Notes under the pieces: generated by a model
Seen by the model: only the letters and a program-made list of their open reading frames with translations
The model's database searches: none
Told to the model about the DNA's origin: nothing
Shown here: positions 28,327 to 58,540 of the stretch, piece after piece
Numbering within the stretch: the first letter of the stretch is position 1
Layout: every line of letters starts with the position of its first letter
NCBI GenBank assembly: GCA_965243315.1
Contig: CBDEUP010000007.1
Location: 21,064-85,063 of the forward strand
From: Alphaproteobacteria bacterium
Lineage (GTDB): Bacteria > Pseudomonadota > Alphaproteobacteria > UBA828
DNA: 64,000 nt
Reading direction: 5' to 3'
Made by a program: the position numbers and the translations under genes

Positions 28327-28482
28327 CGTCATGCGCGGGCATGTCCGGACTCGTTTCGGGCATCTCCAGCGACCGTGTTTTCCCTCGTACCGTCATGCGC
28401 GGACTTGATCCGCGCATCCATATCAGCCAAGCCCGCCATGCGCCGGCCAAACACGTGGATGGCCGGACAAACCCGACCACGA
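28327..28482. repeat. Alphaproteobacterial REP-like palindromic repeats
   Basis: CGTCATGCGCGGACTTGATCCGCGCATCCA...GTGGATGGCCGGACAAACCCGACCACGA; related units near 28327 and 28747-28794. Confidence 0.65.
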
Positions 28483-28553
28483 GAGCGCGGGAGCATGGGG
28501 GGCCGAAAGAGCACCCCATCACGAAAGTGGGATTCGGAGGAGCGTTAGTCTCA

Positions 28554-28622
28554 TGCGGGATTCGCCGGGATTAGGTGGGATTCGCCGGGACAAAGTGGGA
28601 TTAAGTGAGATAAGCGGGATTC
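28554..28622. repeat. Degenerate tandem array, seven ~10-bp units with GGGATT core
   Basis: tgcgggattc gccgggatta ggtgggattc gccgggacaa agtgggatta agtgagataa gcgggattc. Confidence 0.75.
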
Positions 28623-29196
28623 TACGGCAGCGTTTTCTGCCCGAGAGTCGCCCAAGAGCCCGCCCGACGGTCCCGTCATCGCCCACCCAGCGCGCGCGGA
28701 CATTGCGTCGCGCCCCGCAACATCCGCCGCACGCGATGCCCCATCTCGTCACGCGCGGACCTGCCCGGACTCGTTCCGGGTATCCGCGCATCCATATGGC
28801 AACCCCACCGGCTACGACCCATTCGCTCGCGCACATCATGGCGCGATCCTGGCACGGCTCGCGAGCAACAGGCACCGCACCATGGTCCGATGAGACTAGC
28901 GAAGCGACAGAGGACAGGCCATCGCTCCCGCCCCCCTTTTTACTCCGACCCGCTCCACCGCGTTGGGCTCCGTCGTTAGAGCGCTGTCCTCAACGGTGAC
29001 CCAACTGCCCTTCTGCCTACGCACCGCACAGCACACGGTCTTCCGAACACGCAGATTGGAATGCGCCTTTCCACATCTCTGAGAACGCATCCCTTGGAAA
29101 TACCTTTTGCGATTGAGGTCATCTGCAAGGGTAGACCGCGATACATTCGATGGCCTAAAGTACCGAATAAGAATATTGTCGAGGAGAACTCAACTA

Positions 29197-30128
29197 GTGG
29201 CTGAGCATCAGACCTCCGCCAGCGAATGGCTTGCTGATTTGGCCAACCGCATGCAGAGCGACATTGAAGCAGGGGCTGCCCCCCAAGCCGAGAGACTTAC
29301 CGTACGGCAGTTTCTGAGCCGATTTGGATATTATCGACGAGGCCCCAACGTGGTCAGCACTATCCGAAGCGCTCTTGAGACGTGCAGTCTGCGTACTTCT
29401 CCCGACTTCGAATACGAATATGTCGACAACTATATCTCCGTTGAACTCGATCCAAACGTTGAAGAAATGGCCGCAGAAGAACAATTGATTGACCCTACTG
29501 TGCGTATTGGTATTTTGCCCGCTTCTCATAATGTACCCGTTTCAGTTACTCCTAATGATTCCTTAGTTAAGGCGATAACTCTCATGCGAATTGACGACTA
29601 CTCCCAACTTCCTGTCATGACAAATGAACGGGAAGTAAAGGGAGTAGTTAGTTGGCGTTCTATAGGCGAGGCGCAAGCAGACGCACGCAACCCTACAGTG
29701 GTTCGGGAGTGCATGGAGAACGCGCACGAAGTCGATACAAGAATGATGCTTGCGGACGCAACAGAGAGGATCTGCAGTCATGGTTACGTCTTGATCCGGG
29801 GAGAGGACAGGAAAATTACAGGTATTGTAACAGCGGCAGATTTAGCGGATCAGTTTAAGCAGCGTGCACATCCTTTTTTGCTTATCGGTGAAATTGAGCA
29901 CCACTTACGGAATCTTGTTCGACGCAAGTTCACGAAGGATGAGTTCGTTGAGGCATCGGGCGGAGACGAGCACGTCAATGGCCCGGATGATCTTACGTTT
30001 GGTGGCTATTGTCGACTACTGCAAAATGAAGAGTCCTGGAGTAAATTGAAATTGAATGTTGACCGAAAAGAGCTGATAAAGCGCTTGAATACTATTCGAT
30101 TGATTCGAAATGAAATTATGCATTTTTC
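29197..30128 (+). pseudogene. CBS-pair + HEPN protein, 5' part (interrupted by transposon)
   Basis: CBS motifs YSQLPV...GVVSW and ITGIVTAADL; HEPN IEHHLR...RNEIMH; continues in frame at 35717-35815. Confidence 0.82.
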
Positions 30129-30159
30129 GGGGATTATGTAGGAGAGTGCCGAAAGCCGC

Positions 30160-30411
30160 TCACTCGGTGGGCTTCGGTCGGCGCACATAGCGGATGCTCA
30201 CAGGCTTGGTGAGGGCTTCCACCGCCTGATCGAACGTCGCGTCGACCCGCACATCTTCCTCAAGCTCCGCAGCGCTCGGCTGGTAGTCCGAGCTGACAAT
30301 CTCGACTTCGCGGGGCTTCGCTTTCGCCGACCGGTATCTGTGCAGCTTCGCGCGTGCCACAGGCTTCGCCGCAGGGGCCGGGCGGCCTTTGGCTGAAGCG
30401 TTGTCTGCCAT
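30160..30411 (-). CDS. Small hypothetical protein at transposon end
   Basis: 83 aa, YQPSAAELEEDVRVDATFDQAV; stop 5 nt from the IR. Confidence 0.6.
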   Translation of the reverse strand: MADNASAKGRPAPAAKPVARAKLHRYRSAKAKPREVEIVSSDYQPSAAELEEDVRVDATFDQAVEALTKPVSIRYVRRPKPTE

Positions 30412-30494
30412 GAGATGCGACCCGAGCCTCAATCGTTCCCCACAGCACACTTAGTCCATTGCGCCGCCCCGCGCAACCGCGCACACTCATTCTC

Positions 30495-30631
30495 GTAGAC
30501 ACTTCATGCGTCCCGCTCTGTCGGGTCGCCCGCTGAATAGAATAGCCCTAGACCCGACGTGACTGATCATCGCGTCCGGCGAATAGGCGGGGTCATCTCG
30601 CGTTCGCGTGAAGTGTCTACAACGGCCCGGC
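30495..30631 (+). ncRNA. Unrecognised conserved structured RNA motif, copy 2 (leader of lipoprotein gene)
   Basis: 16-bp closing stem 30495-30510/30605-30620; GTCGGGTC/GACCCGAC stem; three blocks identical to copy 1. Confidence 0.7.
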
Positions 30632-30666
30632 ACCAGCCGCCGCCGAGGCAACGCGGGAGAAGCCCC

Positions 30667-31539
30667 ATGAGATCGCCAATCTGTGTCGCGGCACTGACCG
30701 CGGCGGTTGCCCTGTTTTCCTTGCAAGCCTGTGGTGGAGGATTAGTTCATCATCTCCTGGATGGAAACGATGGGAATGACCAACCGGCAACGACAGAGCC
30801 ACCGGCGCCATCATCCCCCCAAATCAAGAGTGAGATCAGCGCCATCTTCGCGCGATCCAACACCCTCATCGAGGAGGAGGATCGTCACCCTCTGTTCGGC
30901 CCTCAGCGATATGCGGGCCAAATCCCGTCGAGGTTCAGCCTCAGAAGGGAACTTGAGGGGGAATACGAGTTTCTTGCCGAAGAGCAGGGCTTTTCTACTG
31001 CGGCTGCCGTCTGGACCACAACGGAGAGACAGAGATGGGTGACGGGCCACTTGAGCCTCGGGGGATGGATGGAGCACAGCTTCTTCCTGGTGAACCAGAC
31101 CGTCTCGGCTGACACTTATGGTGACTATGTGTCGGTCTACCTCGACATCTTTTCCATCGGTGCCGCGAGCGGTACGAACCCCTCTCCTCTTGGCGGCAGC
31201 GCTACCTGGGCCGGCATCATGGCCGGGGTAGACGAGAGCTTGGCAGGACCTGGCATCTCTCGCCTCGAGCATGAAGAGGACAATCTCTACCTCGGAGACG
31301 CCACGCTCACGATCGACGACTTCGCGATGCCGGAAGTGGATGTCCATTTCACCAACGTAACTAACGCAGACTCCGGCCGCCGGCTCAGGGATGTGAACTG
31401 GTTCGATCTGCCTGTGAATGCCGGCGGCTTCGAGGGACGCGGCATTCTCGGCCGCTTCTACGGCCCACAGCACCAAGAGGTAGGAGGGGTCTTCCAGTTC
31501 GGCACAATCAACGGTGCCTTCGGCGCCCTGCGCCATTGA
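30667..31539 (+). CDS. Lipoprotein with C-terminal TbpB-like beta-barrel
   Basis: Lipobox LQAC-GGG; GSATWAGIMAG...GRFYGPQHQEVGGVF...GAFGA, parallel to the C-terminus of 3369-5084. Confidence 0.8.
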   Translation: MRSPICVAALTAAVALFSLQACGGGLVHHLLDGNDGNDQPATTEPPAPSSPQIKSEISAIFARSNTLIEEEDRHPLFGPQRYAGQIPSRFSLRRELEGEYEFLAEEQGFSTAAAVWTTTERQRWVTGHLSLGGWMEHSFFLVNQTVSADTYGDYVSVYLDIFSIGAASGTNPSPLGGSATWAGIMAGVDESLAGPGISRLEHEEDNLYLGDATLTIDDFAMPEVDVHFTNVTNADSGRRLRDVNWFDLPVNAGGFEGRGILGRFYGPQHQEVGGVFQFGTINGAFGALRH

Positions 31540-31552
31540 CGGAGGGTGAATC

Positions 31553-31819
31553 ATGGATCAGTTCGCGGGCACCTTCTTCGCGATAGGCTGGTTCGTTCCC
31601 CCGCTCATTCTCCTAATCGCCTTGGCCTGCTGGCTCTGTCCTAAAGCCGAGAAAAGGGTATGGCCGTGGGTAATCGTGGCCTTCATCCCGATCGTCAATT
31701 TCTTCGCGCCGTATATCCTCCTTGCCCAGGCAGTAGGCGTTGCGCTGGATCGGACCGAATACGAGTGGGAGCCAGAGGACGAATGGGAACCGGAGGACCA
31801 AGACGCCCTGCGGGAGTGA
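31553..31819 (+). CDS. Small membrane protein with acidic tail
   Basis: GGAGG RBS; two hydrophobic segments; EWEPED twice. Confidence 0.65.
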   Translation: MDQFAGTFFAIGWFVPPLILLIALACWLCPKAEKRVWPWVIVAFIPIVNFFAPYILLAQAVGVALDRTEYEWEPEDEWEPEDQDALRE

Positions 31820-31851
31820 TTGACCCCGCTCCCGGTTTGTTCCACTAATAG

Positions 31852-32056
31852 TGAGCGGCCGCGACGCATCGCGGTGGCTCAGAAATGCCGAAGACTGGGG
31901 GGTCCGCCCGACTTCCCGGCCCTCGACAGAACTGAGTTGAACTGAAGTAGAGGGTGCCTCCGCTTAGAGGCGCTGTGTTCTGTGCTCGTGATTCCCCAAT
32001 CCCGAGCCCCGAATATAGCGACAAAAGCGGACTCCCGCAACGCAAGGAGTCTGCCC
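31852..32056 (+). ncRNA. Candidate structured leader RNA (five hairpins, last one hides the RBS)
   Basis: Stems at 31852-31881, 31887-31920, 31926-31983, 31984-32007, 32027-32054; single copy, no covariation available. Confidence 0.4.
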
Positions 32057-32335
32057 ATGCGGAACGAAGATGGTCGTGAATTTGACGTCAAACCCCGCGG
32101 GTCTACCTGGAGACCGGATCCAAGGCCCCCAACTCTCCGCATGAAGATATGGCTACAGGCTCAGGCCCATCGAGCTCGAGAAGAGATGGACCTCGACAGC
32201 TTCGATGACAGGTGGAACCTCACAGGCTTCGAGCGCGTAGCCGTTGGCCGTGAGCCCTTCTGGATTGGGAAGACTTCCGCCTTCGACGCGCCTACGAGCG
32301 ACGTCAGAACGCCCTCGCTCAAGCTCGTTGGCTGA
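32057..32335 (+). CDS. Hypothetical protein (92 aa)
   Basis: AGGAG at 32045-32049 then ATG; no family recognised. Confidence 0.45.
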   Translation: MRNEDGREFDVKPRGSTWRPDPRPPTLRMKIWLQAQAHRAREEMDLDSFDDRWNLTGFERVAVGREPFWIGKTSAFDAPTSDVRTPSLKLVG

Positions 32336-32371
32336 TCCGGGTCTGTGGCTTCAGGCTGTAGGAGAAGGCCG

Positions 32372-32779
32372 ATGAGGGTGCTGCCGGTTGCGACGCTTGC
32401 GGCCATCCTATTCGCAACGTATGTCGCGAAGGCGGAAGAGACAGAGCGGGTTGCGGCTCCTCTCCGCCTGTCTACACTGGAACGCAAGGCGGTAGAGGAG
32501 GGCGTCGCATCGATGTTCGAACTCCCAACTGCCCGCCGCACCACCGTTATCGTGCATGTCATGGCCGGGAAAATTCCCAGTGGCACGGAGTATGTCTGCG
32601 GCTACTTCGATTTTATCGGTGGAGATGGAAAATACATCGGAGAGAAGCCGTTTATGGGTGTCTTCATTCCCAGTACTGCGGCCTTCATCCGCAAGACCTT
32701 CGTTCCACTGTCTATCCCAAGGGAGAAGGAGATGGACCAGACACTCAAGTTCTGCCAGGGAATCGGCTTACCGATGTAG
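32372..32779 (+). CDS. Secreted/periplasmic hypothetical protein
   Basis: AGGAG RBS; signal peptide ending AKA; YVCGYF...GKYIGEKPF; two Cys. Confidence 0.65.
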   Translation: MRVLPVATLAAILFATYVAKAEETERVAAPLRLSTLERKAVEEGVASMFELPTARRTTVIVHVMAGKIPSGTEYVCGYFDFIGGDGKYIGEKPFMGVFIPSTAAFIRKTFVPLSIPREKEMDQTLKFCQGIGLPM

Positions 32780-32825
32780 GGCGTGCTCGACCTGTGACGC
32801 CGATTTCAAACTGAGACATTACCCA

Positions 32826-33680
32826 TTATTCAGTTATTTGTTGCTGATCATCGTCATCCTCCCCCTCTCCATCATCCTTGTAGACGAGCTGAAACGTATT
32901 TTCGAGGATTCCCAGCCAAAGCTTCCGTTCCTTGGCTGGCCATCGCTTCCCGGACTTGGGCAACCGACGAATCAGCCCCATGATGATGGGATCGATGTTG
33001 TCAGGAGGTATGTTGCCATCGCCACCCCCACCCCCACCCCCACCATCCTTGCCGCCCCCACCATCCTTCTTGGAAGGGTCGTCTGGTGGAGGTGTCTTGT
33101 TTGTCGAGGCAGACTCATCCCCTTCTGGAAACCCCGGCTTAATAAAGTTTCCTGTTTGCGAATCAATGAATTGTGCAACTTGGGCTGATTTCACGAACGT
33201 TTGTCGTGCGCGCTCGGCTTGCTTTGGTGCCACGCCCAAATCTTTTGCCATTCGCTCCAAAGCAGCGGCCGGCGGCAAAGGGAATCCCTGCTGCTGATCA
33301 TAAATCTTCCGAAACAGCGGAACGTTGAGAAAGGCCGTCGCCTTCGCCCGTGCTGCCCCCTGCGGACTGAGAACCTGTTGCCCCAGGTTGGTGAGCCGGA
33401 CGCTGTTGCCATGCTGAGAATCAATCAGTCCGAATATGCGTGCTGCCGAATAGCGGGAACGAAATGTGCCACCCGTCGCACTCATATTCATCCACGCGGC
33501 AAGTTGGGTGACCTGGCACTGGATGCCCGCCCTCTCGTTGATCACGCGCGCAAGATCAATCGCATTGCCGAGATCGCTGTATGGGAACGCGATGTCGGAC
33601 CTCTCACGCTTCTGCTCTGCGCCGTTGCTCGTGTCGGTAGCGGCTGTGGTTTCAGTCTGTTCGGTTGTCTCAGTGACCAT
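32826..33680 (-). CDS. Hypothetical protein, probable winged-helix DNA-binding
   Basis: 284 aa; FPYSDL...TFRSRYSAARIFGLI...VRLTNLG wHTH-like pattern; Gly-rich linker. Confidence 0.7.
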   Translation of the reverse strand: MVTETTEQTETTAATDTSNGAEQKRERSDIAFPYSDLGNAIDLARVINERAGIQCQVTQLAAWMNMSATGGTFRSRYSAARIFGLIDSQHGNSVRLTNLGQQVLSPQGAARAKATAFLNVPLFRKIYDQQQGFPLPPAAALERMAKDLGVAPKQAERARQTFVKSAQVAQFIDSQTGNFIKPGFPEGDESASTNKTPPPDDPSKKDGGGGKDGGGGGGGGDGNIPPDNIDPIIMGLIRRLPKSGKRWPAKERKLWLGILENTFQLVYKDDGEGEDDDDQQQITE

Positions 33681-33861
33681 TTGTAGGCTCCCGTTGCCTG
33701 GTCGCGGTCATGTGTTGGGGGCGTATATCATGGACGCGCGAGCGTGACAAGAAAAAATGCGTAAATCCGCGTTTCTCTCTACGGTTCGCTACGCGATGTC
33801 ATACCGCCGCTTGCGCGAGGTGGGCATTTATCGTATTAGAGGCGGCAGGAAGGAGGTGCGT

Positions 33862-33951
33862 ATGGCTAGAAGAGAGTGGAGCCCCCACCGGTATCGCCGA
33901 GCGCTGGCGGGGGCGAGGACAAACAGCAGGGGCCGCTGCGCAGTCCCCTAA
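33862..33951 (+). CDS. Putative 29-aa leader peptide upstream of suppressor tRNA, ending in TAA
   Basis: AGGAGGT RBS at 33851-33857; MARREWSPHRYRRALAGARTNSRGRCAVP; the TAA lies in the loop of an 11-bp stem (33929-33939/33959-33969). Confidence 0.5.
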   Translation: MARREWSPHRYRRALAGARTNSRGRCAVP

Positions 33952-33984
33952 GACACAAGCAGCGGCCCCGAATCGGCCCGTCTA

Positions 33985-34073
33985 GGAGGCGTGGCAGAGT
34001 GGTCGAATGCAGCGGTCTTTAAAACCGCCAGACCTCCCGGGTCTCGTGGGTTCGAATCCCACCGCCTCCGCCA
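33985..34073 (+). tRNA. tRNA with Ser body and UUA anticodon (ochre suppressor)
   Basis: Acceptor GGAGGCG/CGCCTCC, G73, CCA; anticodon arm GCGGT-CTTTAAA-ACCGC; long variable arm AGACCT/GGGTCT; T arm GTGGG-TTCGAAT-CCCAC. Confidence 0.92.
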
Positions 34074-34084
34074 GACCCCACTAA

Positions 34085-34121
34085 GGCCGACGTGTCCATA
34101 GCACGTCGGCCCATATTTTTT
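34085..34121 (+). terminator. Intrinsic terminator after tRNA
   Basis: GGCCGACGTG-tccatag-CACGTCGGCC followed by catatttttt. Confidence 0.75.
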
Positions 34122-34124
34122 AAA

Positions 34125-34200
34125 TCAATCCTTTGCCCAGCGCTTCGCAGCGGCCTTCCGCACGATCTCTCGCCGCCGTTCTGCCGAGAGGGCGAGTGTC
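34125..34200 (-). pseudogene. Decayed small basic protein gene downstream of the transposase
   Basis: Reads LSAERRREIVRKAAAKRWAKD* without a clear start; motif recalled from small ORFs of IS-associated regions. Confidence 0.4.
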
Positions 34201-34260
34201 TCTCGCGATGTGCCGAGCCGGGATGGGGTCCCGGCTCTCCTGCGTCGGCTCGGTAGGTTA

Positions 34261-35232
34261 CTACGACCTCGTGCCGCTCGATAGGCCGTTGTCTGCGATC
34301 AGCTCCCGGTAGCGCAGCCGCTTCCCGACCCCGCCATCGGCGACCGTGCCCATCATGTCGATGGTGTCGCGATCGCGCATGTTGTGCCGGGCTGCGAATT
34401 CCTGGACGTAGCGGTCCATGTGCTTCGGCGACAGCTTGTGGAACGTGCCGGTATGGCTCCGCTTCAACATGGACCAAAATGACTCGATTCCCTGCGTCCC
34501 CACGCCATCGTCCCGGACATACTCACCGGCCGAGTGATTCACGCTCTCGCGGTTCGGCAGGCCGCTATAGGCGCGCGCCTCGTCGGTGTAGATGGTGGCG
34601 CCTGGGGCCGCGTGGGTGCCGACAAAGGCGCTCAGGGTCTCTTTGTCCGCCGCCTCGATCGTCTGAGCGCGCACGGCACCGGTAGCCCTGTCGCGGGCAC
34701 CGGCGACGATGGTCTTGCCCAGGTCCGGCTTCTGGCGGGCCTCTCGGCGCTTCTTGCCGTGCATGTTCTTCATCTTGCCGCCGATGTAGGTCTCGTCCAC
34801 CTCAACCGGGCCAGAGAACACGCCGCCTTCGTTCGCCAGGGCAACCCGCAGCCGATGGGCGAGGAACCACGCGCTGCGCTGGTTGATGTTCAGGTCGCGA
34901 TGCAGCTTCATGGACGAAACGGACTTCAAGCTGGTGGTCATCAGGTAGGTGGCGATCATCCACACCTGGAAGCCGAGCTTGGAGCCCTCCATGACCGTGC
35001 CGGACTTCGCGCTGAAGCGCTTGGCACATTCCTTCTCGCGGCACCGGAAAGGCATCGTCTTGTGTTTCGCGCCGGTCTGCACGTTGACCGAACCGCAGTG
35101 CGGGCAGGTGATCCCGTCCGGCCAGCGACGCTCGATGAACCACGCCTCAGCGGTGGCGTCATCCGGGAACTTCCGCATGAGCTCGACCAGCGACATGCCT
35201 TCGCGGTGAGATTTTCCGGGTGCCTTCGCCAT
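34261..35232 (-). CDS. IS1595-family transposase
   Basis: Zn ribbon CPHC...CREKEC, HTH, VEVDETYIGG, IYTDE, IESFW, RLRYRELI. Confidence 0.95.
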   Translation of the reverse strand: MAKAPGKSHREGMSLVELMRKFPDDATAEAWFIERRWPDGITCPHCGSVNVQTGAKHKTMPFRCREKECAKRFSAKSGTVMEGSKLGFQVWMIATYLMTTSLKSVSSMKLHRDLNINQRSAWFLAHRLRVALANEGGVFSGPVEVDETYIGGKMKNMHGKKRREARQKPDLGKTIVAGARDRATGAVRAQTIEAADKETLSAFVGTHAAPGATIYTDEARAYSGLPNRESVNHSAGEYVRDDGVGTQGIESFWSMLKRSHTGTFHKLSPKHMDRYVQEFAARHNMRDRDTIDMMGTVADGGVGKRLRYRELIADNGLSSGTRS

Positions 35233-35473
35233 GGTGATCGCTTCTCTGAGAACACCATGATTTTACAGGAGAGTGCCGAAGACGTCAAGCCGGATATCAC
35301 GCTGGTTCTCTTGTTCACGGGTTAGACGTTAGGGTAGCCTGAAACGACATCGGGCCGGGATTATCCCGGCCCTCCGAAGGTGGCGATCGCCACGAGTGTC
35401 TGCCCGACGCTCGTGATCATGCCGCAGCCGCTGTGCATGGTCAATGACGATTTCCGCCAGGAAGGAAATCGTC

Positions 35474-35677
35474 ATGACCAAGAAGCACCCCATGGGTTTC
35501 GCCATCACCAGCACTAAGACGCGGCCACGCCAGTTATCACCGCATGAGAGACAGGTACTGTTCACCGCAGAGGCCGCCCGCTTCAGGGAGAATATGGACC
35601 CAGCCAGTCACGATGAAGGTTGGGAGCTTGCGCGACAAGAAGTAGAAGCCGGACTCTGGCCTGGCATTTCACACTGA
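35474..35677 (+). CDS. Small hypothetical protein
   Basis: 67 aa after AAGGA; divergent from the transposase. Confidence 0.35.
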   Translation: MTKKHPMGFAITSTKTRPRQLSPHERQVLFTAEAARFRENMDPASHDEGWELARQEVEAGLWPGISH

Positions 35678-35716
35678 GGCACTACCGGGATTTCGGCACT
35701 GTCCTACATAATCCCC

Positions 35717-35815
35717 CATTTTTCACCTGACGACCACGAGCCGACCGACATTGAAAAACTGGAGAGGGTGGCTCAATTTTTCCGTGGCCTTACGCGTTTA
35801 CAGCGAACAGATTGA
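35717..35815 (+). pseudogene. CBS-HEPN protein, separated 3' end
   Basis: HFSPDDHEPTDIEKLERVAQFFRGLTRLQRTD* continues RNEIMH across the TSD; 340 aa when rejoined. Confidence 0.85.
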
Positions 35816-44277: not shown

Positions 44278-44365
44278 GCCCGCGTGGCGGAATTTGGTAG
44301 ACGCAACGGACTTAAAATCCGTTTCCCGACAGGGAGTCCCGGTTCGAGTCCGGGCGCGGGCACCA
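44278..44365 (+). tRNA. tRNA-Leu (anticodon UAA)
   Basis: GCCCGCG/CGCGGGC, A73, CCA; ACGGA-CTTAAAA-TCCGT; long variable arm. Confidence 0.95.
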
Positions 44366-56521: not shown

Positions 56522-58540
56522 ATGGACATTGCAATAGACATGGGCGGAACATTTACGGACGCCATCACCCGGCGGGCCGATGGTTCCTGGTTTGTTGGGA
56601 AATCTGCCACCACGCCAGGAAGGCTGGAAGCAGGCTTCTTGGCCGCGCTGGCCACCGTCTGTGAGGATCCGACCGAAATTTCGGCGTTAAGGCACGGTAC
56701 GACGGTCGTCGTGAATGCACTTCTAACTTCGGATCATCCCGATTGTCTCCTGATCACGACCGACGGTTTCAGAGATGTTTTGGAGATCATGCGTGGGGAC
56801 CGAAAAGATCTGTTCAATCTCGCGCAAAAGAAGCCGGAACCGCTGATCAAGCGAAAGCAGCGATTGGAAGTGCGTGAACGAATTGCCGCGGACGGAAGTG
56901 TCGTTGAGCCGCTTCAAGCGGATGAGATCAAGCGCGTTGTCGATGAGATCGAGGCTTCGGGTGTGCGAAGCGTCGCGGTCTGCCTGTTGTTCTCGTTTCG
57001 AAATCCAGCACACGAGCTCTTGCTGGGAAAATCGATCTCGGAACGCCTGGGCGACAGAGTGTTTGTCTCTCTTTCCCACGAGGTTTTGCCTCACTATCGC
57101 GAGTTTGAAAGGACAAGCACCACCTGCATCAATGCCATTGCCCGTCCCATCATGAGCAACTATCTGGAGGGCTTGGAACGGTCGCTTCCCCATTCCTTGA
57201 CGGAAGACGGATTCCGGATCATGGAGTCTTCCGGCGGCCTTGCAGATCCGCTTCAAACGCGTCGCGTGCCGGTGAAGTCCCTGCTCTCCGGTCCCGCTGG
57301 CGGGGTGATTTTAGCACTTGAGATCGCCAAGGCGCTCGGGCGAAGCAATGTGATCAGTTTCGACATGGGGGGCACGAGCACCGACGTGGCGGCGGTCACG
57401 AACGGAGAACCGGATCGAAATACCTACATCGAGCTCGTGGGATATCCGATCCAAATTCCTTGCCTCGACATCGTCAGTGTCGGCGCTGGTGGTGGCAGCA
57501 TCGCTTGGGTTGATCAAGGCGGGACCATTCTCGTTGGCCCTCGTTCCGCCGGCGCGGTTCCCGGCCCTGCCTGCTATAGGAAGGGTGGTGTGGAGCCGAC
57601 CGTGACTGACGCGGCGATCGCTCTCGGCCGCTACAATCCCCGTTTGTCCATCGGCGGCGGGCTCCGCCTCGACCGGGAACGAGCGTGGAAATCCATTGAG
57701 GCGCTGGCGGCACGACTGGGACTCAGCCGCGAAGAGACGGCGTGGGGCATCTTGCGCATCGTCAACAGCAATATGGCGGATGCAATCCGGTCAATCTCCA
57801 TCGAACGCTCCCGCGACCCGCGCGACTATACCCTGGTTGCATTTGGTGGTGGTGGGGGCGCTCACGGCCTGGAGGTTGCGGCGGAACTGGAGATGTCTTC
57901 CGTGGTCGTTCCCGCCTACCCAGGCGTCGCATCCGCTCAAGGTATGTTACTTGCCGATGGGCGCCGCGAGCGCCTGAAGACGATCTTTACGCCGTTGGCG
58001 GATCTCGAAGCAATGGCGCTCCACGACATGTTCACACAGATGAGCGAGGAAACGCTTGCCGAGCTTCACGACGACGCTAACAACGGCAATGTGGTTGTTT
58101 CCGCTGCACTGGATCTCAGGTACGCCGGACAAACGCACGAGATCACCATTCCAGTCGAGTTAGGGCAGATCGATACCGACAAGGCGGCGGAGAGCTTTCA
58201 CTGCTCTCATGAGGCGCGTTACGGGCATTCGCTTCGTGAAAGCTCAGTCGAAGCCGTGAACATTCGTGTCGCTGCTGTGAGTGTCGCCGAGAACAAGGAG
58301 TTCGGCGCTCCTCGTTGGCCAGAGCTGGAGGTTGGCGATCAACGCCGAGAAGTCTACTGGGGACCCGAACAGGGCTGGCTCGAGACGCAGATTCTCACGC
58401 GTAAAGATGTCGAGACGATAGAGCCGACACTTGGGCCTGCCGTCATCGAACAGTCCGACGCAACCATCGTCGTTCCACCAGACGCCAGCTGCTCGGCGGC
58501 GAAGCCGGGCTTCCTCGAACTGAAGTGGCTTAGACAATGA
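56522..58540 (+). CDS. Hydantoinase A / 5-oxoprolinase ATP-dependent subunit
   Basis: DMGGTFTD, HGTT, SGPAGG, DMGGTSTD, GAGGGS, PTVTDA. Confidence 0.92.
   Translation: MDIAIDMGGTFTDAITRRADGSWFVGKSATTPGRLEAGFLAALATVCEDPTEISALRHGTTVVVNALLTSDHPDCLLITTDGFRDVLEIMRGDRKDLFNLAQKKPEPLIKRKQRLEVRERIAADGSVVEPLQADEIKRVVDEIEASGVRSVAVCLLFSFRNPAHELLLGKSISERLGDRVFVSLSHEVLPHYREFERTSTTCINAIARPIMSNYLEGLERSLPHSLTEDGFRIMESSGGLADPLQTRRVPVKSLLSGPAGGVILALEIAKALGRSNVISFDMGGTSTDVAAVTNGEPDRNTYIELVGYPIQIPCLDIVSVGAGGGSIAWVDQGGTILVGPRSAGAVPGPACYRKGGVEPTVTDAAIALGRYNPRLSIGGGLRLDRERAWKSIEALAARLGLSREETAWGILRIVNSNMADAIRSISIERSRDPRDYTLVAFGGGGGAHGLEVAAELEMSSVVVPAYPGVASAQGMLLADGRRERLKTIFTPLADLEAMALHDMFTQMSEETLAELHDDANNGNVVVSAALDLRYAGQTHEITIPVELGQIDTDKAAESFHCSHEARYGHSLRESSVEAVNIRVAAVSVAENKEFGAPRWPELEVGDQRREVYWGPEQGWLETQILTRKDVETIEPTLGPAVIEQSDATIVVPPDASCSAAKPGFLELKWLRQ

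What the first reader, a model, noticed from the sequence alone, without database searches (positions are those of the whole stretch)
33985..34073. Transposon-borne ochre-suppressor tRNA (Ser body, UUA anticodon)
Seen: a fully paired cloverleaf with encoded CCA and its own terminator; anticodon loop CU-UUA-AA, one base from tRNA-Ser(UGA). Known: SerRS recognises the long variable arm, not the anticodon, and ochre suppressors read UAA and UAG. Host genes here often end in TAG (pyrE, pyrC, ivd), so expression should be costly and regulated; the transposase ends TAG-TAA. Inference: a mobile element that inserts Ser at stops, perhaps to switch on stop-interrupted genes, disturb AT-rich UAA-ending phage genes, or supply a tRNA resistant to anticodon nucleases.
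Basis: partly seen in the sequence, partly recalled or inferred. Interest (0 to 1): 0.9.

Follow-up and report, generated by a model that had tools for sequence, protein, structure and literature searches.

The report
Ochre-suppressor tRNA carried by a transposon
A well-formed serine-type tRNA whose anticodon reads the stop codon UAA sits, next to a regulator-like gene, inside a 5.6-kb jumping gene, and its relatives ride on similar jumping genes in other bacteria, suggesting that mobile DNA spreads controlled stop-codon read-through.

Summary
Window 33985-34073(+) is a canonical 7/5 cloverleaf tRNA with a Ser-type body, G73, encoded CCA, anticodon UUA and its own terminator. Contigs from two studies confirm the anticodon.

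It is transposon-borne. It lies in a 5,588-bp IS1595-family transposon (30129-35716) with 25-bp inverted ends and a perfect 8-bp target duplication. The transposon split the 3' end of a DS-11 anti-phage gene.

Inside it, the tRNA belongs to a conserved module: a divergent winged-helix gene (D), a structured leader with a short ORF, the tRNA, and a remnant of a small basic gene (B). In other genomes the same module, with a Ser-type or a Leu-type UUA tRNA, is enclosed by the ends of IS1-family or IS1595-family transposons. The cloverleaf and the leader hairpins both covary.

Not shown: expression, charging, suppression, or what the element gains. No module gene needs read-through. Copies in sister species are degraded or carry CUA.

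My literature searches found no description. The nearest precedent is the allo-tRNAs. Verdict: real, probably functional and regulated; a new variant of a known kind.

The parts
29197..30141 (+). DS-11 (CBS-domain) anti-phage gene, cut at its 3' end by the transposon. It now stops at a TAG inside the left inverted repeat.
   Evidence: NCBIfam NF053863 316 bits, cut-off 260. The source-called protein P0122 has 314 aa against 334-345 aa in homologues. It aligns to P0123 only up to residue 311.
30121..30128 (.). Left copy of the 8-bp target-site duplication CATTTTTC.
   Evidence: Read directly. The same architecture in G008 has ATTTTTTT and in G014 CAATTTTG.
30129..30153 (+). Left terminal inverted repeat (25 bp) of the IS1595-family transposon.
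   Evidence: A 22-nt core occurs 3 times in the window with 0 expected by chance; extended by eye.
30559..32779 (+). Other cargo of unknown function: a 326-aa ORF (30559-31539) and small ORFs up to 32779.
   Evidence: No Pfam, NCBIfam, PHROGs or PADLOC match. Parts are homologous to the G014 and G008 copies of the transposon.
32808..32823 (-). IS1-type end sequence GGTAATGTCTCAGTTT, 3 nt after the stop codon of D. It is in direct orientation to the copy at 35671.
   Evidence: One mismatch to the end consensus of the complete IS1-family elements.
32826..33680 (-). Gene D: 284-aa winged-helix protein, divergent from the tRNA; a probable regulator.
   Evidence: Family of at least 341 proteins; all members with a source name are 'hypothetical'. 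AlphaFold pLDDT 78. Weak DtxR/MarR-like fold matches, best E 0.015. Found next to UUA tRNAs in L002, L003, L018, L004. Homologous to E. Two exact RNA-library contigs lie inside it.
33862..33951 (+). Leader mini-ORF of 29 codons behind a strong Shine-Dalgarno. It starts ATG-GCT-AGA-AGA and its TAA stop lies in the loop of hairpin 2.
   Evidence: AGA is about 1.7% of Arg codons in this genome.
33881..33977 (+). Structured leader RNA: hairpin 1 (~33881-33913), hairpin 2 (33929-33939 / 33959-33969) and the invariant AATCGGC motif (33971-33977).
   Evidence: 11 of 15 predicted pairs keep pairing through changes on both sides in 14 sequences. No Rfam family matches.
33985..34073 (+). tRNA with a Ser-type body and anticodon UUA (34019-34021), G73 and encoded CCA.
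   Evidence: Family covariation: 14 of 25 pairs have compensatory changes.
34085..34120 (+). Intrinsic terminator: 11-bp stem followed by a T-run.
34131..34190 (-). Remnant (last ~20 codons) of the small basic gene B.
   Evidence: tblastn 75% over 20 aa, E 7e-5. B family alignment.
34261..35232 (-). IS1595-family transposase, 323 aa, apparently intact; ends TAG-TAA.
   Evidence: Pfam PF12762 134.7 bits and PF12760 29 bits. NCBIfam 179 bits, cut-off 75. Stop codons.
35259..35280 (-). Third, internal copy of the IS1595-type repeat, just upstream of the transposase start.
   Evidence: G008 and G014 have the same layout.
35671..35686 (-). Second IS1-type end sequence, GGTAGTGCCTCAGTGT.
35692..35716 (-). 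Right terminal inverted repeat of the transposon.
35717..35815 (+). Right copy of the duplication (35717-35724) followed by the displaced last ~29 codons and stop of the DS-11 gene.
   Evidence: The translation is 69% identical (22 of 32) to residues 309-340 of homologue P0123.

Best explanation
The feature is a genuine tRNA gene, probably functional, that would be charged with serine and would read the ochre stop codon UAA (and, through U34 wobble, probably UAG). It is cargo of mobile DNA. In this genome it lies in an apparently intact 5.6-kb IS1595-family transposon that jumped into the 3' end of a DS-11 defence gene. Within that transposon it belongs to an older conserved module: winged-helix gene D, then divergently a promoter, a translated and structured leader and the tRNA with its terminator, then the small basic gene B. 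In other bacteria this module is the cargo of IS1-family transposons. Shown here: the gene's anatomy, its family, covariation in the tRNA and the leader, the transposon ends and the insertion event. Inferred: D represses the divergent tRNA promoter, and the leader couples tRNA output to translation, so that a costly suppressor is kept low or conditional. Its product then causes low-level or triggered read-through of host or invader stop codons. What the element gains is not known.
For: The anticodon is confirmed in contigs from two studies and retained in a diverged relative. A whole-collection pattern scan found 39 species-genome loci and 3 viral loci; 41 of the 42 contain an ARAGORN tRNA(tta). 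Nine of them are 84-92% identical to ours. The cloverleaf is maintained, with compensatory changes at 14 of 25 pairs in 14 sequences. Homologous gene sets (A, B, D) accompany either a Ser-type or a Leu-type body, both with UUA, so the stop-reading anticodon is the shared feature. Of 42 UUA tRNAs including ours, 27 have these neighbours, whereas only 1 of this genome's 55 tRNAs lies within 2 kb of such a transposase. Terminal repeats enclose the transposase and the tRNA in L001 (17 of 17 nt), L003 and L018, with both ends also present in L014 and L040. The same holds for IS1595-type elements in L033, L036, L022 and L005. The window transposon has 25-bp ends, an 8-bp duplication and a split DS-11 gene, and two congeners show independent insertions of the same transposon type with different duplications. 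Leader hairpins covary at 11 of 15 pairs. D has a winged-helix fold. From established knowledge (recalled, not tested here): SerRS and LeuRS do not read the anticodon, G73 and the long variable arm mark bacterial tRNA-Ser, and A36-A37-A38 is the MiaA motif of tRNAs that read U-starting codons.
Against: There is no evidence of expression, aminoacylation or suppression; the one RNA run was uninformative over the tRNA. The strict sigma-70 scan found no promoter. UAA plus UAG end about 41% of long ORFs here, so an active suppressor should be costly. Copies in sister species look inactivated or altered: G017 has an 8-nt anticodon loop and a mutated T-loop, and G001 has CUA, A73 and no CCA. The pattern that found most relatives required UUA, which is an ascertainment bias. 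Ascertained through protein D instead, the slot held UUA in only 1 of 48 loci, a Glu/Gln-like tRNA with UAC or an 8-nt loop in 15, and no ARAGORN tRNA in 32, several of which are degraded tRNA-like remnants. That leaves room for a non-decoding role. The window copy has lost the IS1-like transposase and most of B. Fold matches for D are weak: none reaches E 0.001.
Confidence: 0.6

Rival explanations
1. It is a tRNA-shaped RNA whose job is not decoding. It could be a processing, stability or regulatory element for transposon transcripts, or a cofactor or decoy bound by D, B or the transposase. The anticodon loop would then be a protein-recognition feature.
For: The slot next to D holds many non-standard tRNA-like genes: 8-nt loops that ARAGORN reports as ambiguous 'Stop|Val', one copy without an anticodon arm, and a T-loop insertion. 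In several loci the tRNA lies directly upstream of the transposase on the same strand. A conserved structured leader precedes it. Mukai et al. [quoted passage not shown]
Against: The Ser-type family keeps every feature needed for decoding: a 7/5 cloverleaf, G18G19, the TTCGAAT T-loop, G73, CCA, a 7-nt loop with U33 and A37, and its own terminator. Two different aminoacylatable bodies converge on the same stop anticodon.
Confidence: 0.15
2. It is a decaying hitchhiker: a tRNA-Ser(UGA) gene picked up by an insertion sequence acquired a G35U change, and it is silent or on its way to loss, with no selected function.
For: It is one base away from a UGA anticodon. A viral-contig tRNA-Ser(UGA), L154, shares its D-arm, anticodon stem and T-arm. 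Congeners' copies are degraded. Here the module has lost its transposase and most of B.
Against: UUA is kept in nine loci that are 84-92% identical, from Parvibaculum, Hyphomicrobium, Stellaceae, Arenicellales and a viral contig, while the stems change in a compensatory way. It is also kept in L056, which was found through protein D, and in the X6 relative. No close family member found here through D, E or DNA homology rather than the UUA pattern has a sense Ser anticodon: they have UUA, CUA or a broken loop.
Confidence: 0.12
3. It is a helper for a recoded partner: the tRNA supplies UAA decoding to some other mobile element or phage in the same cells whose genes carry in-frame UAA codons.
For: Phages are known to use suppressor tRNAs to switch genetic code (abstract start of PMC10879173 as listed). 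Four UUA tRNAs were found on contigs classed as viral (L040-L042; L145).
Against: No in-frame TAA or TAG occurs in any module or transposase gene examined. The leader motif was absent from the viral collection: 72 of 72 hits were chance matches. The phage and plasmid collections matched only the tRNA body. I did not look for a recoded partner in the rest of the genome.
Confidence: 0.05
4. It is an assembly or sequencing error in a normal tRNA-Ser(UGA) gene.
For: The anticodon is a single base away from UGA.
Against: The host's own tRNA-Ser(UGA) is a different gene, 78% identical. Contigs from two studies agree on TTA, a diverged relative also has TTA, and dozens of independent genomes carry the same anticodon.
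Confidence: 0.01

Closest known systems
Allo-tRNAs and irregular tRNAs of soil bacteria (Mukai et al. 2017, PMC5389517; review PMC7609411)
   Same: They are natural bacterial tRNAs whose anticodon does not match their amino-acid identity. Some have anticodons for the UAA stop codon, they are charged with Ser or Ala, they are toxic when expressed in E. coli, and they are found near toxin-antitoxin genes, with one pseudogene overlapping a transposon-related ORF (passages read).
   Different: Allo-tRNAs are defined by an 8/4 or 9/3 acceptor/T-stem structure, whereas this tRNA is a canonical 7/5 cloverleaf. The passages I read describe no enclosing transposon ends, winged-helix partner or leader. 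Their supplementary figures were not available to me.
Laboratory nonsense suppressors (E. coli supC/supG ochre, supD Ser amber; yeast Ser ochre suppressor): recalled, not from a call
   Same: A one-base anticodon change turns a normal tRNA into a stop reader. Ser and Leu tRNAs tolerate this because their synthetases ignore the anticodon.
   Different: Those are mutant alleles of chromosomal genes selected in the laboratory. This one is an extra, diverged, horizontally spread gene family with its own regulatory surroundings.
Phage-encoded suppressor tRNAs used for stop-codon recoding
   Same: A mobile genetic entity carries a stop-reading tRNA (abstract starts of PMC10879173 and PMC12386605 as listed).
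   Different: Those phages reassign UAG or UGA and have many in-frame stops in their own genes. Here the codon is UAA, the vehicle is an insertion-sequence-type transposon, and its own genes have no in-frame stops.
IS1595-family and IS1-family insertion sequences with passenger genes (ISfinder subgroups such as ISNwi1+, ISNha5, ISMhu11): recalled
   Same: A DDE transposase with a zinc ribbon, short terminal inverted repeats, an 8-bp target duplication and extra non-transposition genes between the ends.
   Different: My searches found no paper naming a tRNA, let alone a suppressor tRNA, as the passenger.
Deliberate-mistranslation tRNA modules of Streptomyces (tRNAProX with ProRSx): recalled
   Same: An accessory, horizontally spread tRNA that miscodes and is presumed to act conditionally.
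   Different: That system brings its own synthetase and miscodes sense codons. Here no synthetase is linked and the target is a stop codon.

Membership tests
tRNA (Rfam RF00005) | Score above the gathering threshold, with a complete cloverleaf | tested here: met
   61.8 bits against 29, model positions 1-71 of 71. ARAGORN agrees.
Bacterial tRNA-Ser (identity for SerRS) | Long variable arm, G73, G1-C72/G2-C71, a 3-bp D-stem with C11-G24 (the feature list is recalled) | tested here: met
   All are present in the sequence. Among the host's 54 other tRNAs the nearest is tRNA-Ser(UGA), at 0.81 identity.
Bacterial tRNA-Ser (identity for SerRS) | Actually aminoacylated with serine | not testable with these tools
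   Needs an acid-gel or periodate assay, or mass spectrometry of a reporter.
Ochre (UAA) suppressor tRNA | Anticodon 5'-UUA-3' in a standard 7-nt loop with U33 and a purine at 37 | tested here: met
   The loop is CUUUAAA at 34017-34023. The base is confirmed in contigs from two studies.
Ochre (UAA) suppressor tRNA | Read-through of UAA in vivo | not testable with these tools
   No reporter or proteome data. The RNA run was uninformative.
Allo-tRNA | A 12-bp acceptor branch split 8/4 or 9/3 | tested here: not met
   7-bp acceptor stem and 5-bp T-stem. The definition comes from PMC5389517 (abstract listed; passages read).
tRNA-Sec (selC) | UCA anticodon and an 8/5 structure | tested here: not met
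   The anticodon is UUA and the structure is 7/5.
IS1595-family transposon | DDE_Tnp_IS1595 domain plus an N-terminal zinc ribbon | tested here: met
   PF12762 at 134.7 bits, PF12760 at 29.0 bits, NF033547 at 179 bits against a cut-off of 75.
IS1595-family transposon | Terminal inverted repeats and an 8-bp target-site duplication enclosing the cargo | tested here: met
   25-bp ends at 30129-30153 and 35692-35716, CATTTTTC on both sides, and a split DS-11 gene.
IS1595-family transposon | Transposition activity today | not testable with these tools
   The transposase ORF looks intact. Three congeneric genomes have copies at different sites.
IS1-family cargo transposon (A + D/E + tRNA + B) | An IS1-like transposase between inverted GGTAGTG..TCAGTTT ends | tested here: not met
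   In the window, no IS1-like transposase was found and the two end-like sequences are in direct orientation. The feature is met in L001, L003 and L018. Pfam DDE_Tnp_IS1 is above its cut-off in 2 of the 4 A proteins scanned, and NCBIfam is below its cut-off in all 4.
DS-11 anti-phage system | The tRNA module being part of the defence system | tested here: not met
   The transposon interrupts the DS-11 gene. DS-11 is found in 1 of 21 genomes of the genus, and it was not among the neighbour clusters shared by the other tRNA loci.

The most novel reading that the evidence does not exclude
IS1- and IS1595-family cargo transposons spread a previously unrecognised class of 'miscoding tRNA' modules. 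Each module would have a winged-helix repressor and a translated, structured leader that hold a toxic tRNA silent until a trigger releases it. The tRNA may be a Ser- or Leu-charged ochre suppressor, or a Glu/Gln-like tRNA with a one-base-shifted anticodon. On release, a burst of proteome-wide read-through or miscoding would act as abortive infection against phages, as host manipulation, or as a stress-evolvability switch. The trigger could be phage infection, translation stress sensed at the tandem rare AGA codons, or transposon loss. This would be the first natural, mobile, regulated UAA-suppression system in bacteria.
Probability: 0.15. Interest if true: 0.92.

Novelty: new variant of a known kind. 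Interest (0 to 1): 0.8.

Why it matters
As far as I recall, UAA is the one stop codon never reassigned in bacteria, and efficient ochre suppressors are regarded as harmful. Here a structurally intact UAA-reading tRNA family has been kept through divergence, placed on two different tRNA bodies, and moved between Alphaproteobacteria, Gammaproteobacteria and other phyla on two families of small transposons. That would mean stop-codon read-through can be a transferable, probably regulated trait. It gives a concrete system (regulator gene, leader, tRNA) in which to ask how cells tolerate or exploit a suppressor. It adds tRNAs to the known cargo of insertion sequences. It may also supply compact natural UAA-suppressor cassettes for genetic-code engineering. 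The local detail, a jump into an anti-phage gene, shows the element has been active in this lineage.

Tried and rejected
(1) The element needs its own suppressor: rejected. No recurrent in-frame TAA or TAG occurs in A, B, D, E or the IS1595 transposases of the loci examined. Reading the window's other cargo ORFs, I saw only one in-frame stop between adjacent ORFs, a TGA.

(2) A UAA-sensing leader as the general mechanism: not supported. In the 12 Ser-type loci the leader ORF stops are TAA in 6, TAG in 1 and TGA in 5. In the wider family the ORF length ranges from 5 to more than 60 codons. Only the start, ATG-x-AGR-AGR, is conserved.

(3) 'All IS1595 transposases beside UUA tRNAs end in TAG/TAA' (9 of 9) as a signal: rejected by the control. 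Five of 7 tRNA-less copies in this genome do the same.

(4) The first repeat searches found no ends enclosing the tRNA. The ends were found later by motif and by k-mer search. For L031, L012, L038 and L032 no ends were found.

(5) PHROGs and PADLOC gave nothing for 10 island ORFs.

(6) The leader motif in viral contigs gave 72 hits, none with the hairpin or a tRNA, so all are chance matches. The family D-arm pattern mostly found ordinary phage tRNA-Ser genes.

(7) The plasmid and phage collections matched only the tRNA body, never the leader.

(8) RNA evidence: run X7 covers none of the leader or tRNA informatively; it has two exact contigs in D only, and DNA carry-over cannot be excluded.

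(9) Protein E was found in 2 of 401 genomes sampled from the class, and ARAGORN found no tRNA in either locus. D-like genes in G004, G008 and G012 have no tRNA.

(10) The minimum-energy fold pairs the 3' strand of leader hairpin 1 with the tRNA's 3' acceptor strand. By eye this is less good in L003 and absent in L065, so I did not pursue it.

(11) Literature: eight searches found no paper describing a suppressor tRNA as cargo of an insertion sequence. One search was badly posed and swamped by the term 'transposase'.

(13) Not used: the search of protein representatives, complex prediction, the second structure job and the covariance-model tools.
Full report
THE OBSERVATION

Window 33985-34073(+) is called tRNA-Stop with anticodon tta by ARAGORN. 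It matches Rfam's tRNA model end to end at 61.8 bits, against a gathering score of 29. Read directly, it has a 7-bp acceptor stem GGAGGCG/CGCCTCC, G73, an encoded CCA, a 7-nt anticodon loop CUUUAAA, a long variable arm and a standard T-loop. An 11-bp terminator hairpin with a T-run follows at 34085-34111.

The genome is 5.22 Mb, 67% GC, in 7 contigs. Its permuted tmRNA suggests an alphaproteobacterium; that link is recalled, not tested. It already has the four usual tRNA-Ser genes among 55 tRNAs, so this gene is an extra. Its closest host tRNA is tRNA-Ser(UGA), at 78% identity in one alignment and 0.81 in another, and the stem differences are compensatory. Leu and Tyr tRNAs are more distant.

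Contigs from two separate studies show no difference at the anticodon. A ~90%-identical relative in a third study differs in the variable arm but not in the anticodon.

A FAMILY OF UUA tRNAs

I scanned one genome for each of 185,579 species with the UUA anticodon stem-loop plus T-loop pattern. This returned 39 loci, and the viral collection gave 3 more. ARAGORN finds a tRNA(tta) in 41 of the 42. About half have Ser-type bodies and half Leu-type bodies with A73.

Nine loci are 84-92% identical to ours. They come from Parvibaculum, Hyphomicrobium, Stellaceae, unnamed alphaproteobacterial MAGs, Arenicellales and one viral contig. Across 13 Ser-type UUA tRNAs plus the closest sense relative, 14 of 25 cloverleaf pairs keep pairing through changes on both sides. 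That closest sense relative is a viral-contig tRNA-Ser(UGA), L154, with the same D-arm, anticodon stem and T-arm.

The pattern required UUA, so these loci cannot by themselves show that the anticodon is conserved. Relatives found by other routes give a partial answer:
- L056, found through protein D, has UUA.
- The X6 relative, found by DNA similarity, has UUA.
- Congener G001 has CUA, an amber anticodon, with A73 and no CCA.
- Congener G017 has an 8-nt loop and a damaged T-loop.

None of these four has a sense Ser anticodon.

THE MODULE

Clustering all neighbouring ORFs shows recurrent partners:
- A, a distant IS1-family transposase. Pfam DDE_Tnp_IS1 is above its cut-off in 2 of 4 members scanned; NCBIfam is below its cut-off in all 4.
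- D or E, proteins of about 270 aa with no family match. They are homologous to each other (hhalign probability 89.8%).
- B, a basic protein of about 80 aa with a conserved C-terminus. Its nearest atlas clusters carry the automatic name 'histone H1', which is only a lead.
- IS1595-family transposases.

Of 42 UUA tRNAs including ours, 27 have at least one of these neighbours, and 6 of the remaining 15 sit within 600 nt of the edge of the stored locus. In contrast, only 1 of this genome's 55 tRNAs lies within 2 kb of such a transposase, and it is this one.

The close Ser-type family has a fixed order: A and D/E on one strand, about 280 nt of spacer, then the tRNA on the other strand, then B converging on it. 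Leu-type UUA tRNAs occur with the same genes (L018, L016, L014, L040).

D is predicted with confidence over residues 30-180 as a winged-helix domain plus a helical domain. Its best PDB matches are DtxR/MarR-type repressors, but weakly: best E 0.015, none at or below 0.001. The family has at least 341 members, and every member that carries a source name is called 'hypothetical'.

THE LEADER

About 120 nt upstream of the tRNA are conserved. In order, they hold:
- a CGTATTA(T/G) box that looks like a -10 element (the strict promoter scan found none);
- a Shine-Dalgarno sequence;
- an ATG followed by one codon and then two AGA/AGG codons (AGA is about 1.7% of Arg codons here);
- two hairpins;
- an invariant AATCGGC motif.

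In 14 sequences, 11 of 15 predicted pairs show compensatory changes. No Rfam family matches.

In the window the 29-codon ORF (33862-33951) ends at a TAA in the loop of hairpin 2. That suggested the suppressor might sense its own level through read-through. The idea does not generalise: stop codons in the 12 Ser-type loci are TAA in 6, TAG in 1 and TGA in 5, and ORF length varies widely in the larger family. I therefore infer only that translation of the leader is coupled in some way to tRNA output.

THE VEHICLES

In complete elements, inverted ends of the form GGTAGTG..TCAGTTT enclose A, D/E, the tRNA and B. L001 has a 17 of 17 match and the element is 2,386 bp. L003 is 2,753 bp. L018 has 48-nt arms. 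L014 and L040 also have both ends. From memory, these ends resemble IS1 ends.

For IS1595-linked Leu-type tRNAs, terminal repeats enclose the transposase and the tRNA in 4 of 8 loci: L033 (a perfect 21 nt), L036, L022 and L005. So two DDE insertion-sequence families carry UUA tRNAs as cargo.

THE WINDOW'S ELEMENT

A 22-nt motif occurs three times in the window, with none expected by chance. The outer, inverted pair extends to 25 bp (30129-30153 and 35692-35716, one mismatch). It is flanked by a perfect 8-bp direct repeat, CATTTTTC.

The DS-11 (CBS-domain) anti-phage gene passes NCBIfam's cut-off (316 bits against 260). It runs into the left repeat and stops there. Its closest homologue aligns with it up to residue 311. 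The homologue's last 32 residues then align, at 69% identity, with the translation of the DNA just beyond the right repeat. So a 5,588-bp IS1595-family transposon inserted into the 3' end of that gene.

Two congeners, G008 and G014, carry the same type of transposon at other sites. Theirs have different duplications (ATTTTTTT, CAATTTTG) and different cargo, and no D or tRNA.

The flanks of the whole region are syntenic across the genus, and the segment between them varies: about 2.1 kb in G006 against about 7.7 kb here. The transposon is 60% GC against 67% for the genome.

Inside the transposon, the D-leader-tRNA unit is bounded by two IS1-type end sequences in direct orientation (32808-32823 and 35671-35686). 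B is reduced to its last ~20 codons, next to the end of the IS1595 transposase gene. No IS1-like transposase remains. I read this as a rearranged remnant of an IS1-type cargo element nested in an IS1595-type transposon. The order of these events was not resolved.

WHAT IS IN THE SLOT WHEN THE SEARCH STARTS FROM D

I fetched 80 metagenome loci through a D profile. Of these, 48 had at least 520 nt upstream of D. ARAGORN found the following in the divergent slot:

| ARAGORN call in the slot | Loci (of 48) |
|---|---|
| tRNA-Val(tac) | 14 |
| tRNA(tta) | 1 |
| ambiguous loop ('ta') | 1 |
| no tRNA | 32 |

The 'Val' tRNAs are not Val-like. Their nearest host tRNAs are Glu or Gln, at 0.70-0.75 identity. 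Several have 8-nt loops that ARAGORN marks 'Stop|Val'. At least four of the 'empty' slots hold the leader followed by a degraded tRNA-like sequence.

D is often paired with A or with an IS1595 transposase: at least 25 of the 80 loci, many of which are only 1-2 kb long. D is present in 5 of 21 genomes of the genus, and three of those copies have no tRNA.

So D looks like a common accessory gene of these transposons, and the leader-tRNA unit is an optional cargo that comes in several non-standard kinds. The Ser-type and Leu-type forms are each one base away, at position 35, from a normal anticodon, and the Glu/Gln-like form appears to be as well. I take that as a hint that miscoding, not codon supply, is the common theme. 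This is inference.

MECHANISM, AND WHAT IS NOT SHOWN

The best-supported reading is a regulated, serine-inserting ochre suppressor. SerRS ignores the anticodon, and A36-A37-A38 fits the modification motif of tRNAs that read U-starting codons (both points are recalled). The gene has its own terminator, a divergent winged-helix gene and a translated structured leader.

The cost would be real. TAA plus TAG end about 41% of long ORFs. Consistent with that cost, the copies in sister species look inactivated.

None of the module's genes needs read-through, so any benefit must act in trans. It could fall on host genes, on invading DNA, or on the element's persistence. I could not distinguish these. 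A non-decoding role for the tRNA-shaped RNA remains possible, given the odd relatives.

I obtained no evidence on expression of the tRNA. An RNA library held two exact contigs inside D, which is a weak hint that D is transcribed.

COMPARISON WITH WHAT IS KNOWN

Eight literature searches found no description of a suppressor tRNA as insertion-sequence cargo. The nearest precedent is the allo-tRNA work (PMC5389517, passages read; review PMC7609411). That work describes structurally unusual tRNAs, some with anticodons for UAA, found near toxin-antitoxin genes and possibly linked to transposable elements.

Our tRNA fails the defining 8/4 or 9/3 structure, so it is not a member of that family, but it may work in a similar way. 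Phage suppressor tRNAs differ in codon, in vehicle, and in having recoded genes of their own. I rate the finding a new variant of a known kind.

Noticed in passing
window 29197-30141 and 35717-35815: A DS-11 (CBS-domain) anti-phage gene is split by the transposon. Its last ~29 codons lie 5.6 kb downstream. The gene is found in only 1 of 21 genomes of the genus. Whether the truncated protein still works is unknown.
   Followed up: yes
G000 contig C6:637022-639826 (outside the window): A second IS1-family cargo element with inverted GGCAGTGCTGCATTTT ends. It holds an IS1-like transposase (638934-639800), a B-like fragment, a 188-aa ORF and about 1 kb of low-GC DNA without a long ORF. ARAGORN finds no tRNA there.
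   Followed up: partly
L018 2311-2388, L026 3378-3452, L022 3499-3588: In three loci the UUA tRNA is immediately preceded or followed by another short or odd tRNA: Ser(gct)-like of 75-78 nt, or a 90-nt Pro(tgg). These look like small polycistrons of irregular tRNAs, reminiscent of those in PMC5389517.
   Followed up: no
L069 ~2230-2300 and 1661-1758: Next to a D gene, the leader is followed by a tRNA-like sequence that lacks the whole anticodon arm. A bacterial SRP RNA lies about 700 nt upstream of D.
   Followed up: no
window 57493-57574; G000 C7:112080, 124022, 2017850, 2103708; C6:313461; C1:5634 and 11382: ARAGORN reports several odd tRNAs in this genome: an 82-nt Glu(ctc) with its anticodon at position 38 that Rfam did not score, one with a 2-base anticodon, tRNAs of 90-98 nt, and two 84-nt Gln(ctg) genes on a 14-kb contig. 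They may be false positives, intron-bearing genes or further irregular tRNAs.
   Followed up: no
window 28390-28890: Short REP-like repeats, present in dozens of copies on several contigs, mark the left part of the variable region.
   Followed up: no
window 33903-33914 and 34063-34074: The 3' strand of leader hairpin 1 is complementary (12 pairs, one of them G-U) to the tRNA's 3' acceptor strand plus CCA, and the minimum-energy fold uses this pairing. It could be an alternative, inactive precursor fold. By eye, conservation in relatives looked poor.
   Followed up: partly
window 35476-35646: A small ORF behind a palindromic ATGACGATTTCC...GGAAATCGTCAT motif lies between the internal and the outer IS1595-type repeats. 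Its function is unknown, and the equivalent segments in G008 and G014 are unrelated in sequence.
   Followed up: no
window 44278-44365: The genome's only tRNA-Leu(UAA) lies 10 kb from the suppressor. TTA is this genome's rarest sense codon, at 0.5 per thousand. I saw no sign that this tRNA is mobile.
   Followed up: no
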